Shown here: piece by piece, positions 12,099 to 28,076 of the stretch
Layout of the letters: the number at the start of each line of letters is the position of its first letter
How positions within the stretch are numbered: the stretch's first letter is position 1
Source of the DNA: the human T2T-CHM13v2.0 reference genome, Homo sapiens
Assembly: GCF_009914755.1 (NCBI RefSeq)
Contig: NC_060934.1
DNA: 64,000 bases
Reading direction: 5' to 3' (one strand)
The notes under the pieces: generated by a model
Databases searched by the model: none
Told to the model about the DNA's origin: nothing
What the model saw: only the letters and a program-made list of their open reading frames with translations
Position numbers and translations under genes: made by a program

Positions 12099-12106
12099 CT
12101 TTTCAT
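12099..12106 (-). CDS. SVIL: Canonical SVIL start: ATG AAA AG| (MKR)
   Basis: GAAATGAAAAG|gtaaga; 8+152+667 nt gives a continuous [12 protein letters not shown]... frame. Confidence 0.96.
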
Positions 12107-12156
12107 TTCTAAGAATTCTTTCTTCTTTGGTTCAAAGATTTGTCTTAATTCTGCAA
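12099..12156 (-). other. SVIL: SVIL start-codon exon ('exon 4', 58 bp; 50 nt upstream of ATG)
   Basis: Acceptor ttttcttccag|TTGCAG; donor AG|gtaaga. Confidence 0.93.
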
Positions 12157-12204
12157 CTGGAAGAAAACCAAAAAAGAACAAAATATAGTATTTAGTAGTC
12201 GTGC

Positions 12205-12350
12205 GCTCATTTTATTCACTCATGCAACGTGTTTATTGAACTGCAAATTTCAGTTCTTGATTCCTATGTCACAGTGACATGCAAAACTGACCAAGTTCCT
12301 GCTTTCTTGGAAACTGTTTCCTAGTAGGGGAGGCAGATGCCAAATGAATA
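12205..12350. mobile_element. Old L2-like fragment
   Basis: CATTTATTCACTCATGCAACGTGTTTATTGA-type L2 3' end signature. Confidence 0.5.
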
Positions 12351-12361
12351 AGAGTGTGCAG

Positions 12362-12392
12362 ACACACACACACACACACACACACACACACA
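12362..12392. repeat. (CA)~15 microsatellite; (UG)n in SVIL pre-mRNA
   Basis: Direct reading. Confidence 0.97.
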
Positions 12393-12409
12393 TGGACACA
12401 CCCTAGGAC

Positions 12410-12574
12410 GCATCATCCTCTTCTAAGGTCAAGCTGAATATTTGATGCCCATAAAAATGACAGAGTTATCAAGGCAAAGCTAAGACATGCTCACTCAACA
12501 TACTGTTTAATATGAAATATATATGTAATATATTTAAAATCACATACATTAAAATAATTTAAATAGAATGTTTT
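12410..12574 (+). repeat. Copy B of local direct duplication (partner 10721-10882)
   Basis: Manual alignment. Confidence 0.85.
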
Positions 12575-24782: not shown

Positions 24783-25095
24783 GGCCAGGCGCAGTGACTC
24801 ACGCCTGTAATCCCAGCACTTTGGGAGGCCGAGGTGGGTGGATCACAAGGTCAGGAGATCGAGACCATCCTGGCTAACACGGTGAAACCCCGTCTCTACT
24901 AAAAATACAAAAAAATTAGCTGGGCCTGGTGGCGGGTGCCTGTAGTCCCAGCCACTCGGGAGGCTGAGGCAGGAGAATGGCGTGAACCCAGGAGGCGGAG
25001 CTTGCAGTGAGCTGAGATCGCGTCACTGCACTCCAGCCTGGGTGACAGAGAGAGACTCCGTCTCAAAAAAAAAAACAAAAAAAAAAACAAAAACA
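24783..25095 (+). mobile_element. AluY
   Basis: AluY diagnostics GAGACCATCCTGGCTAACACGG and GAATGGCGTGAACC...GAGCTTGCAG. Confidence 0.92.
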
Positions 25096-25819
25096 GAAAG
25101 AAACCAAGCCTCAGATCCTATTAAAACATGGCCAAGATGAGAAATACGGATGCATCCCATTAAAAAAGTGACGTTTCGTGAGTCAGTTAAGACAACCTCA
25201 CTGATGACCCTGGATCATCATTGCTCTAATTAACCTTGTACTTAGATGTGCCGCTTGATGATATTGTGTGTAAAAATTAAAGCATAAACACTTAAAAGAT
25301 GTGGAGGAAATACACCAAGGATTTGTCCCATCCAGGGTGTTTACAAGATCAACTGCCATTTTCAAATGCAGAGCAGGCTCAGCCTGAGGAGGACAGGAGT
25401 TAGACCCCTGTCTATCCTAATGTTGTTGAAATGCAAACCCTTTTTGGTCAAGGAACAATGTCATAATACCTTAGGCACAAGAGCAACTGTGTGGAAATGG
25501 GGGCTGGGTCCTTCCGCTATAATGAAGCACAGATTGAGATCTTTGCCTGACTGCGTAGGGGACAACTTTGTGCCTCCATCTGAAAATATCAAACTCTATT
25601 AATATAGACAACAATCTACTAAAAAGCACCTGAGATACAGCTACTGTGTATGGCACAGGCATTCATTTCCACTTCTCTTACATCCATGATGATGTGTCAT
25701 GGAGTTTTAGCACATTAGGTCAATCAAATTAGCACCCATAATATTCTGTGGCCAAGGGGACTGGAAGTTCAGAAAGGTTAAGAGAGAGAGTTGAGAAGAC
25801 CAGGGAAGAATAACTCACA

Positions 25820-25902
25820 TGGATGGGTGGATGGGTGGATGGATGGATGGATGGATGGATGGATGGATGTGTGTGTGTGTGTGTTTGTGTATGTGTGTGT
25901 GT
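25820..25902. repeat. Compound (GGAT)n/(GT)n microsatellite
   Basis: Direct reading. Confidence 0.95.
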
Positions 25903-26302
25903 CTATGGAAAAAGGGAGGGAGGGAGCAGAGGAAGGAAGGAGGAAGGGAGAAGGAAGAGAAACAAGTTTAAACCATTTCTAAAAAGAATCTAGCTCCCTT
26001 CTTTGATGGACAGATTGCAAAAGGACAGTGCCTGCTTAGAGGCAGGTGTGAGAAAGAAAAGATAATAGTCCTTTAAAAGTTTGCAATGACAAGAGACAGC
26101 AAGATTCTGTTCTCCAAATAGTTTCCATAAGCAGAATTAAATACAAAGATTCCTCTGCTTCATACATTTTAATAAATCAAATTCTAGAGAGAAAACATAT
26201 TGCCAAACATTTAAACTCATGAGTTAGACATTCAAGAGAATAATTTTAAAAGCTACAACAAATCTTCAAAATTTCACAGTTGTTGAGACAAGGCCACTTT
26301 AC

Positions 26303-26360
26303 CTTGAAACTTTCCTTTGACGTGGGAATCCAAGGAAGCTTAAGTTTTTCTTGTTGAAAT
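26303..26360 (-). other. SVIL: SVIL upstream exon ('exon 2', 58 bp; nominal 5' UTR, open frame FNKKNLSFLGFPRQRKVS)
   Basis: Acceptor tttcttttcccttag|AT, donor AAG|gtaaag; phase 1 in, phase 2 out; frame continuous with exon 3. Confidence 0.85.
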
Positions 26361-28015
26361 CTAAGGGAAAAGAAATAATGTAACATTGAAATAGTTATGC
26401 AAATTGTTAAAAATCCGGTGAGAAAAAACTCTCCAAACTGCTTTTGAACATATAATTTAAGAAAAAGAAAACCATTAACCAGACAAAAAATAGAAATACA
26501 AAAATGACACCTTCTAAGAATCAAATTCCACATGGAAATTTACATAGGCAAGTTTTGCTTTTCTCTTCCGGAAAGTAGCCAACATACTCCATGGGTAAAT
26601 GAAAATAATAACAACAATAATAACAATAATACTTCTAACACAGTTCAATGTTACCATTTAAATTTGTTATGGCAACAAGAATAACTCAAAGCAATTAAAT
26701 GCTAAATAAGGCAGCTATATACTCAGGAATAGAGGAGAAACTAAGCAATTTTGGTCCAGGCAACTAGAAATGTTTGAGATGCCTTTAAAGAATGGGGGTG
26801 GGGTCTGAAGAGCAAAGGACAACTCAGCTGTGTCTTTTGCTCTCATTAAAATCTACACAATAACAACCAATAAAAATAACTATTTATTTGTATTTTGAAG
26901 ACAAGATAGGTATTATGTAAAGACAGCTGGTAACAATTCTATACAGGAAAAACATCCCAAAGGAACAGGTTAATCAAAACCAGGCACAGACAAAATTTAT
27001 AACCAGTCTAATGGCATGTAATCTGTTTTACAGCCTTTGGCTTACAGCATTTGTCCACTAAGAAAACCACAAATAGACCATTTACAGAAACTTCTTCCCC
27101 TAAGGAAGTGCCTTTTGCTCTTTAATATTTAGGGGCAGAAGCCCAAGGAAAAATAAGTACAAAATATATCAGATGTTGACACTTCATTATCCATCAAAAT
27201 ACATCCTCAGTCCTGGAATTTGGAACTGTGGCCAACTAAAGAAATACAATAAAATGAAAGGTATAATGCCAGTAAAACATCTAAGCTTTTCTCTTAACTA
27301 TGCAAGTATCTTGTTATGTAATTAACCAAAGAGAAATCAATTCAGAAAGCTTTCAAGTGCTGTAGGAGAAAATTCCTGAATCTGAGGTCTGAATTGTTCA
27401 AGTCACTTCCCAATAGTGCATTTGAGCTGGAAAGCAGTTCTGATGTATAATGGCTGAGTTTCAAATATGATACTCAAAATAACCTTAGCGTTTCAGTTTT
27501 GTTCAATCAGTGAACTGAACATGCCACACCACTTCAGTAGTTACATTGAAAGCATGTATTTTCCTCTGTGCTGGAAGAAAGCCACTGAAAAGACAGTATC
27601 TTGTTCCAAACTGTCTCACATGAAGAGTTAATAAAAAGACGCTACTCACCACTGCCTACTGGAAATAATTTAGTATGTATAGCATTTGATTTAGAAAAAT
27701 ATTTTAGCTAAAGTGCAGCACATCTAGCATTTGATCCAAAGTGTGGGCATTCCAATTGCATTTGCAATTTTTCCTACAAAAAGGTTTCAGTGGTTTAGTA
27801 GTAACTTTAACTTATTAAGGGAAAACAAATTCACATTATCAGCAATCACAAGATAAGCTCATTTATAAACTCAATTAGATATTTAAAGTGTCTTTGGAGA
27901 AATGTGTATAAGTAACTGAACACAGGAGAATACATAGGGCAAAATAGAGGACCCCAGGCATTCATCGTGTTATACAATCCATACATAAGTGCATTTCGTA
28001 TTTATCTTGCCTTAC

Positions 28016-28076
28016 CTTGTTTCTCAGAGAATTTGAAAGCTCCCAAATAGCTGGAAAACCCTGGGCTTCTGAACAT
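28016..28076 (-). CDS. SVIL: Candidate alternative upstream coding exon MFRSPGFSSYLGAFKFSEKQ of an N-terminally extended supervillin
   Basis: GCAGCC-ATG Kozak context, in-frame TGA 21 nt upstream, 20 codons then G|gtaagg phase-1 donor matching the phase-1 acceptor of exon 26303-26360. Confidence 0.7.

What the first reader, a model, noticed from the sequence alone, without database searches (positions are those of the whole stretch)
12099..28076. Hidden 87-aa N-terminal extension of supervillin: the '5' UTR' exons are in frame and an upstream ATG exon completes them
Seen: exons 26303-26360 (58 nt), 20249-20340 (92 nt) and the first 50 nt of 12099-12156 splice into 200 nt with no stop in the frame of the canonical ATG, and phases match at each junction. 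At 28016-28076 a GCAGCC-ATG, preceded by an in-frame TGA, opens 20 codons ending at a strong phase-1 donor (AAG|gtaagg). This fits the phase-1 acceptor of the next exon. Spliced product: [97 protein letters not shown]. Established: the classical supervillin/archvillin proteins start at MKRKER. Inference: this is a longer isoform, and first-exon choice switches the same exons between UTR and CDS. It may already exist as a predicted model; I cannot check that here.
Basis: partly seen in the sequence, partly recalled or inferred. Interest (0 to 1): 0.85.

Follow-up and report, generated by a model that had tools for sequence, protein, structure and literature searches.

The report
Conserved longer start of human supervillin
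Three exons listed as untranslated leader of the human supervillin gene, plus a small upstream start exon, encode an 87-residue front end that is conserved far beyond mammals and already predicted in many animals, though not in the curated human gene models.

Summary
On the minus strand, 28076-28016 (ATG, 20 codons + 1 nt, AAG|gtaagg), 26360-26303, 20340-20249 and 12156-12107 splice into one open frame that runs into the canonical MKRKER start. The open frame through the 200 nt of 'UTR' is unlikely by chance (148 of 20000 shuffles). The ATG exon alone is not: the same intron holds 17 comparable candidates.

Comparison with other species decides it. 117 of 219 stored supervillin proteins begin with the same exon-A peptide. 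In the 29 placental species I aligned, from eight orders, the 87 residues are gapless and 81% identical to human. A bona fide coding exon scores 73%. Divergent, unnamed supervillin-type proteins keep a recognisable exon-A start and homologues of exons C and D ahead of an internal Met.

So this is an old coding N-terminus, read when transcription starts at an internal first exon. No human protein with this start, and no paper on it, turned up (11, 21, 22, 40, 48, 49, 54). Human transcript and translation evidence could not be obtained. The human genome keeps three further in-phase ATG first exons. Verdict: real, largely an annotation gap, moderately interesting.

The parts
28016..28076 (-). Exon A, coding part of an alternative first exon. 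ATG at 28076, then 20 codons plus 1 nt, donor AAG|gtaagg after 28016. The transcript start lies further upstream at an unknown position.
   Evidence: The same 20-residue peptide opens Pongo pygmaeus, Callithrix and Sapajus models. The Met is kept in 29 of 29 aligned species. The Bos model starts four codons further upstream, so the exon extends 5' of the possible cag| acceptor.
28098..28100 (-). In-frame TGA eight codons upstream of the ATG. It closes the frame on the 5' side.
26303..26360 (-). Exon B, 58 nt, phase-1 acceptor. It is 5'UTR in NM_021738.3 and coding in the extended form. It is the least conserved part in distant homologues.
   Evidence: 78% mean identity over 29 species. 0-5 of 19 residues shared with the distant homologues.
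20249..20340 (-). Exon C, 92 nt. It is 5'UTR in NM_021738.3 and coding in the extended form. SFQ.E and the following acidic stretch are conserved.
   Evidence: 78% mean identity. 10-19 of 31 residues shared with the distant homologues.
12107..12156 (-). First 50 nt of exon D, the last 17 residues of the extension. It holds the most conserved motif, LP.VA.LR..FEPK, directly before the canonical Met.
   Evidence: (invariant positions 68-81).
12099..12106 (-). Canonical start ATG and the next 5 nt (MKR...), at the end of exon D. In the extended form this Met is internal.
   Evidence: Hub annotation (coding 12099-12106). The Met is kept in all aligned proteins, including the distant ones.
11831..11982 (-). 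Next canonical coding exon. Its 50 in-frame residues were the query that retrieved the supervillin proteins.
33142..33175 (-). A second candidate alternative first exon. ATG at 33175, 11 codons plus 1 nt, donor G|gtacca, same phase as exon A.
   Evidence: The peptide is identical to the start of the Pan troglodytes isoform X13 model P0039.

Best explanation
Exons B, C and the first 50 nt of D are ancient supervillin coding sequence. SVIL has several first exons.

Transcripts from the distal CpG-rich first exon, as in NM_021738.3, bring no in-frame ATG. B-D are then scanned as leader and translation starts at MKRKER in exon D. Transcripts that start at the internal first exon A (ATG at 28076) splice in phase 1 to exon B. 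They make a protein with 87 extra N-terminal residues, with the textbook Met as residue 88.

Shown: frame, phases and splice signals in human; the same start in many predicted orthologues; gapless protein conservation above that of a true coding exon; persistence in distant homologues.

Inferred: that human cells use exon A and translate from its ATG. Also inferred: that the extra residues modify the N-terminal region, which the literature describes as the myosin-II-binding end. The extension is predicted to be mostly disordered, with a helix that runs across the canonical Met.
For: Human anatomy. The open frame is rare by chance (148 of 20000 shuffles).

Orthologous models: among the 120 best hits to the 50-residue canonical exon, 54 read at least part of B-D as protein and 18 start with exon A. 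A search with the orangutan extension gave 614 hits. All 99 new proteins among the 120 listed start with exon A. That makes 117 of 219 stored hits.

The sources include NCBI Gnomon, other GenBank annotations (Thomomys, Trichechus, Vulpes, Capra) and a UniProt entry for Bos. More than one annotation source is therefore involved.

Alignment of human with one model from each of 29 species in eight orders (Primates, Rodentia, Carnivora, Perissodactyla, Artiodactyla with Cetacea, Chiroptera, Proboscidea, Sirenia) shows no gap in 87 columns. Mean identity to human is 81.4% (73.6-96.6), with 23 invariant positions including the start Met. The canonical 222-residue exon gives 72.7% with 170 gap cells.

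Depth: a profile search of 1.84 billion representatives gave 120 hits. Eleven divergent proteins were aligned. They share only 17-37 of the canonical first 51 residues with human. All begin with an exon-A-like peptide and carry homologues of C and D before an internal Met. Six long divergent proteins were scanned against Pfam, five from that alignment plus P0228. All six have gelsolin repeats and five have a villin headpiece.

Switch: the papers speak of 35 coding exons (passages read) against 38 exons in the hub table. This leaves exon 1, B and C non-coding. All three strong donors of the distal exon give an in-frame stop without a following ATG.
Against: There is no human evidence of use. 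No human-named protein with this start is among the representatives listed. The six human entries all start at MKRKE. The hub table reports only four SVIL transcripts in RefSeq RS_2025_08, with these exons as UTR. The database is clustered at 90%, so a human entry could hide inside a cluster.

The species set is ascertained. A species with a broken frame would simply lack an extended model, and I could not get a denominator. Predicted models follow a longest-ORF rule, so they are not independent proof of translation.

No orthologous DNA was available, so dN/dS or PhyloCSF could not be computed. My substitute test was not significant (P = 0.087). It was also blind on a true coding exon.

Exon A alone is one of 17 comparable candidates in the intron. 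The fold model is weak (mean pLDDT 55).
Confidence: 0.75

Rival explanations
1. The extended isoform is real in other mammals, but its first exon is silent or negligible in human. Human supervillin would then effectively always start at MKRKER, and the open frame is an inherited but unused feature.
For: No human protein with this start is among the listed representatives. The hub table shows only four curated transcripts. The papers treat the MKRKER N-terminus as shared by all isoforms (passages). Searches for the peptides in full texts found nothing.
Against: In human the ATG, its context, the frame and the strong donor are all intact. The exon-A peptide is identical to orangutan, marmoset and capuchin models. 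Absence from a clustered database and from curated models is weak evidence.
Confidence: 0.15
2. The exons are conserved as leader sequence for RNA-level reasons such as translation control or an overlapping enhancer. The open frame is a by-product that gene predictors turn into protein models by the longest-ORF rule.
For: RefSeq marks an enhancer at 19200-20399 over exon C (hub table). The models are predictions. The conservative-substitution test was not significant. No synonymous-site test was possible.
Against: RNA-level constraint does not explain several observations:
- A conserved start Met and no gap in 87 codons in 29 of 29 species.
- At greater distance, sequence that drifts while the frame, the start peptide and the C/D motifs persist, with whole-codon gaps only.
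- Four different first exons that all supply an ATG in the same phase.
- Only one of three frames being open.
Confidence: 0.07
3. The whole thing is chance: an AT-rich leader that happens to lack stops, plus one of many ATG...GT strings in a long intron.
For: 17 comparable ATG-to-donor candidates exist in 37.6 kb.
Against: The open frame occurs in 0.7% of shuffles. 117 database proteins from many species use exactly this exon and frame.
Confidence: 0.01

Closest known systems
Predicted supervillin isoforms with the exon-A start in other mammals. Examples: Pongo pygmaeus X12-X17 (P0123, P0046, P0062, P0037, P0054, P0051), Callithrix jacchus X13-X18, Canis, Felis, Bos, Equus, Elephas (names as given by the database sources).
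   Same: Same first-exon peptide and the same three following exons read in the same frame into MKRKER. Orangutan is 96.6% identical to human over the 87 residues, with no gap. The start is combined with both ~1870-1990 and ~2170-2300 residue bodies.
   Different: They are computed models in other species. None is named as human, and none is, as far as my searches show, described in a paper.
Canonical human supervillin/archvillin (NM_021738.3, start MKRKER; isoforms SV1-SV5 of the literature).
   Same: Everything from residue 88 of the extended form onward. The same exons B-D are present in the mRNA (hub table).
   Different: Transcription starts at the distal CpG-rich exon (73% G+C) and B-D are untranslated. 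The published isoforms differ by internal coding exons, not at the N-terminus (passages read).
Other first-exon variants of the same gene: Pan X13 (P0039), Aotus/Saimiri (P0013, P0040), Gorilla/Pongo/Macaca/Chlorocebus (P0044, P0036).
   Same: Each supplies a short ATG exon in phase 1 to exon B, so B-D are coding. All three exons are intact in the human genome.
   Different: Their start peptides are short (5-18 residues). In my lists they appear in fewer lineages than exon A, and they were not seen in the distant homologues.
General class: N-terminal proteoforms made by alternative promoters or first exons (recalled background, not tested here).
   Same: One gene and one shared body. The first exon decides whether downstream exons are leader or coding.
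   Different: Nothing unusual in mechanism. The point of interest is only that the longer form looks ancestral and is missing from the curated human models.

Membership tests
Supervillin (SVIL) protein, N-terminal region | The extension is contiguous, in one frame, with the canonical N-terminal exon (MKRKER..., 50-residue exon 11981-11832). | tested here: met
   (human splice). (orthologues carry the extension directly before the canonical Met).
Supervillin (SVIL) protein, N-terminal region | Proteins bearing the extension have the supervillin body (gelsolin repeats and villin headpiece). | tested here: met
   Gelsolin repeat in 7 of 7 proteins tested (six divergent ones and orangutan P0046). 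Villin headpiece in 6 of 7; P0236 is without it at E<=1e-5. Precomputed Pfam columns agree.
Conserved protein-coding sequence | The frame is intact, without frameshifts, across species. | tested here: inconclusive
   0 gap cells in 87 columns x 29 species, and whole-residue gaps only in distant homologues. The data are proteins chosen because a model exists, so broken frames could not be seen.
Conserved protein-coding sequence | Amino-acid conservation comparable to known coding exons of the same gene. | tested here: met
   extension 81.4% mean identity to human. Canonical 222-residue exon 72.7%. Canonical first 51 residues 95.5%.
Conserved protein-coding sequence | Excess of synonymous over non-synonymous change (dN/dS < 1, PhyloCSF > 0). 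| not testable with these tools
   No vertebrate DNA other than the window's own genome is held. The BLOSUM-based proxy gave P = 0.087 and also failed on a true coding exon (P = 0.50).
Alternative-promoter N-terminal proteoform | An alternative first exon with its own ATG, closed upstream, in phase with the shared exon. | tested here: met
   (TGA at 28100, ATG at 28076, phase-1 donor and acceptor). The Bos model begins upstream of the possible acceptor, which fits a first exon rather than a cassette exon.
Alternative-promoter N-terminal proteoform | The transcript from the other promoter lacks an in-frame ATG, so the shared exons are leader. | tested here: inconclusive
   3 of 3 strong donors within 1.5 kb of the annotated gene start give an in-frame stop and no ATG. 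The true exon-1 boundary was not available to me.
Alternative-promoter N-terminal proteoform | Transcription start, splice junction and translation initiation observed in the organism (human). | not testable with these tools
Peptide strings were not found in full texts.

The most novel reading that the evidence does not exclude
The 87-residue extension, not MKRKER, may be the ancestral N-terminus of supervillin in vertebrates. Human tissues would then make a long proteoform that two decades of supervillin and archvillin work has missed, including constructs, N-terminal antibodies and variant interpretation. The conserved motif just before the textbook Met would form one helix with the first canonical residues and so change the N-terminal binding region. 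Variants in exons A-D now classed as 5'UTR or intronic would be missense or nonsense in that proteoform.
Probability: 0.35. Interest if true: 0.55.

Novelty: new member of a known kind. Interest (0 to 1): 0.35.

Why it matters
Supervillin loss causes a human myopathy (PMC7447519, abstract and passages read), and the N-terminus is described as an interaction region of the protein. Suppose a conserved 87-residue front end is made in some tissues. Then expression constructs and epitope maps that start at MKRKER describe only one proteoform. Variants in three 'UTR' exons and one unannotated exon would need re-reading as coding. The curated human gene models would need an added isoform.

In kind it is ordinary: alternative first exons giving N-terminal proteoforms are common. 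This one is already a standard predicted model in dozens of mammals. Its value is therefore as an annotation correction and a lead for supervillin specialists.

Tried and rejected
- A 30-residue exon translation was too short for the homologue search. I used the neighbouring 50-residue exon instead.
- The conservative-substitution (BLOSUM62) test against random single-base changes gave 140 observed substitutions, mean -0.11 against -0.30 expected, P = 0.087. On the true coding exon it gave P = 0.50, so the test has no power here and I do not use it.
- The search for short proteins (30-1094 residues) carrying the extension gave 10 hits. None has the exon-A start and none is human-named. Four of them (P0223-P0226) are unspliced read-throughs of exon C into its intron, so they are ORF calls on genomic DNA.
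- Pfam found no family on two N-terminal fragments.
- The AlphaFold2 model of the mole fragment, with a six-row alignment, is weak: mean pLDDT 55, pTM 0.20. Only the helices are worth a mention.
- The protein atlas look-up gave a first hit at 0.83 (a Chordata cluster) and structure rows with TM <= 0.30. It is uninformative.
- Seven literature searches found no paper on a longer supervillin N-terminus.
- One paper reports unannotated internal SVIL exons validated by RT-PCR (PMC4878813, passages read). I cannot say whether it concerns this exon.
- I considered exon A as an internal cassette exon, because a possible cag| acceptor lies 2 nt before the ATG. I set this aside because the Bos model reads further upstream. 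It is not excluded.
- Names of the distant homologues could not be obtained.
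Full report
**1. The observation**

I read the four stretches on the minus strand, then spliced and translated them in a script.
- Exon A runs from the ATG at 28076 to 28016 (61 nt) and ends in AAG|gtaagg.
- Exon B is 26360-26303 (58 nt), exon C is 20340-20249 (92 nt) and exon D is 12156-12099 (58 nt).
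- All have AG acceptors and GT donors.
- The phases fit: 61, 119 and 211 nt leave 1, 2 and 1 bases over.
- The frame runs without a stop into the canonical ATG at 12106 and on through the next two coding exons.
- An in-frame TGA lies at 28100-28098.

The other two frames of the 200 leader bases carry four stops each.

**2. Is it more than chance?**

There are two separate answers.
- The open frame through 200 nt survives in only 148 of 20000 mononucleotide shuffles.
- An ATG followed by an open frame and a phase-1 GTRAG donor is common. The minus strand between 26361 and 64000 has 17 such candidates, and exon A is one of them.

From human sequence alone the ATG exon would be a guess.

**3. Related sequences: placental mammals**

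The large protein database proved to hold vertebrate proteins with source names.

*First search.* The query was the 50-residue canonical exon (window 11981-11832), searched against proteins of 89-2000 residues. It gave 1614 hits, of which 120 were listed. Sorted by what lies before the canonical start, the 120 break down as follows:

| Start type | Count |
|---|---|
| Canonical Met | 53 |
| Exon-A peptide | 18 |
| Another short first exon, then exon B | 23 |
| Only part of C/D read | 13 |
| Other 5' sequence | 12 |
| No anchor | 1 |

The six human-named entries all start at the canonical Met.

*Second search.* The query was residues 1-92 of the orangutan model P0046, searched against proteins of 1095-3485 residues. 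It gave 614 hits, of which 120 were listed. All 99 that were new start with exon A. In total, 117 of 219 stored hits have that start.
- The names given by the sources are mostly NCBI predicted isoforms.
- They also include other GenBank annotations (Thomomys, Trichechus, Vulpes, Capra) and a UniProt entry for Bos.
- The start is attached both to bodies of about 1870-1990 residues and to bodies of about 2170-2300 residues.

*Alignment.* I took one model for each of 29 species and left out further isoforms and close congeners. I aligned these with the human splice product.
- The species cover Primates, Rodentia, Carnivora, Perissodactyla, Artiodactyla with Cetacea, Chiroptera, Proboscidea and Sirenia.
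- The 87 residues align without a single gap.
- Mean identity to human is 81.4% (range 73.6-96.6).
- 23 positions are invariant. They include the start Met and a block directly before the canonical Met.
- In the same proteins the first 51 canonical residues are 95.5% identical.
- The next canonical exon (222 residues) is only 72.7% identical, with 170 gap cells.

So the 'leader' is better conserved as protein than an undisputed coding exon of the same gene.

*Caveats.* The species were available only because a model exists. The models are predictions built on open frames. I had no orthologous DNA for a synonymous-site test.

**4. Related sequences: greater depth**

I ran a profile built from six short returned proteins (alignment A1) against 1.84 billion nameless representatives. 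It gave 120 hits.
- Many matches begin well before the canonical Met.
- Eleven such proteins were aligned with human, elephant and hamster.
- They share only 17-37 of the 51 first canonical residues with human, against 48-49 for the two mammals.
- Yet each begins with a peptide recognisably like exon A (4-9 of 20 residues identical, with the same Met and an aromatic-rich pattern).
- Each carries homologues of exon C (10-19 of 31) and exon D (5-9 of 17) before an internal Met followed by the conserved RKER motif.
- Exon B is almost unrecognisable (0-5 of 19).
- Gaps are whole residues, as they must be in protein data.

Six long divergent proteins were scanned against Pfam, five from that alignment plus P0228. 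All six have gelsolin repeats and five have the villin headpiece, so they are supervillin-type proteins. Their taxa are unknown to me. The atlas look-up only pointed to Chordata, at a score below its own threshold. The extension is therefore much older than placental mammals.

**5. The switch**

Two papers speak of 35 coding exons and of an N-terminus shared by all isoforms (PMC6192639 and PMC7447519, passages read). The hub table gives 38 exons for NM_021738.3. That leaves exon 1, B and C as the non-coding ones.

I fetched the 132 kb between the window and the annotated gene start from the window's own genome.
- The first 1.5 kb from the gene start is 73% G+C.
- It has three strong donors. 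For each, the frame that would enter exon B holds a stop and no later ATG.

This fits B-D being leader in that transcript. The true exon boundary was not known to me.

The human genome keeps three more short first exons with an ATG in the same phase.

| Window coordinates (minus strand) | Status in window | Matches model start of |
|---|---|---|
| 33175-33142 | inside the window | chimpanzee (identical) |
| 77190-77175 | outside the window | Aotus |
| 105141-105087 | outside the window | gorilla/orangutan, one Lys fewer |

Four first exons that all open the same frame are hard to explain unless that frame is read.

**6. What the extension might do**

- Pfam finds no family on it.
- A fold of the mole fragment is of low confidence (mean pLDDT 55).
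- The fold places helices over exon C, over the conserved motif of exon D, and one (residues 70-90, block pLDDT about 70-78) that runs across the canonical Met.
- I infer a mostly disordered addition whose last part forms one element with the first canonical residues.
- The literature describes that end as binding myosin II (PMC7447519, passage).

This functional reading is an inference.

**7. Human evidence and prior knowledge**

- No human-named protein with this start was among the listed representatives of three searches. Clustering at 90% could hide one.
- Seven full-text searches found no paper on a longer supervillin N-terminus or its peptides.
- PMC4878813 reports unannotated internal SVIL exons validated by RT-PCR. 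Its coordinates are in a supplement that I could not open.
- I could not consult Ensembl/GENCODE, RNA-seq, CAGE, Ribo-seq or MS data.

**8. Verdict**

These are coding exons of an old, conserved, longer supervillin N-terminus, reached from an internal first exon. It is not hidden in general, being a standard predicted isoform in many mammals. It is absent from the curated human models given to me and, as far as my searches show, from the literature.

| Reading | Confidence |
|---|---|
| The sequence is genuine coding sequence (explanations 1 and 2 together) | about 0.9 |
| It is genuine coding sequence and is used in human | 0.75 |

Interest is moderate to low (0.35). It is an annotation gap with possible consequences for variant reading and for supervillin biology, not a new kind of mechanism.

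Noticed in passing
window 33142-33175 (-): A short ATG exon (11 codons plus 1 nt, donor G|gtacca) in phase with exon B. Its peptide is identical to the start of the chimpanzee isoform X13 model P0039. It is a further candidate human first exon.
   Followed up: partly
outside the window: window coordinates 77175-77190 (-) = G000:C10:29651175-29651190, locus L010: ATG plus four codons plus T|gtaagt, in phase with exon B. It matches the start of Aotus models; Saimiri models differ at one residue.
   Followed up: partly
outside the window: window coordinates 105087-105141 (-) = G000:C10:29679087-29679141, locus L013: An ATG exon with two in-frame Mets, a TAG directly upstream and donor G|gtaagg. 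It matches the start of gorilla, orangutan and macaque models, but human has one Lys codon fewer (an in-frame difference).
   Followed up: partly
window 20352-20471 (-), just upstream of exon C: Orangutan and macaque models (P0053, P0060, P0064) read from this intron straight into exon C. In human the same frame has a stop. RefSeq marks an enhancer at 19200-20399 over exon C. This suggests another internal start region.
   Followed up: no
window 11988-12086 (-), intron between exon D and the next exon: Several database proteins (P0003, P0017, P0042, P0081) read from this intron into the canonical exon, giving HRKE instead of KRKE. The human frame is open over 32 codons but preceded by a stop. 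These are probably retained-intron or internal-start transcripts.
   Followed up: no
G000:C10:30722041-30740434 (+), about 1.1 Mb from the gene: A partial copy of the C-terminal supervillin exons (query residues about 1057-1821), 74-92% identical and with stops in several pieces. It looks like a duplicated pseudogene fragment.
   Followed up: no
proteins P0223-P0226: Short database 'proteins' that are exon C read on into its intron. They are ORF calls on unspliced mammalian genomic DNA in public assemblies, not supervillin isoforms.
   Followed up: partly
alignment, extension residue 58: Human has Glu where all 29 other aligned species have another residue: Lys in most, with Arg, Asn, Thr or Ser in the rest. 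It is a human-lineage change in the extension of unknown meaning.
   Followed up: no
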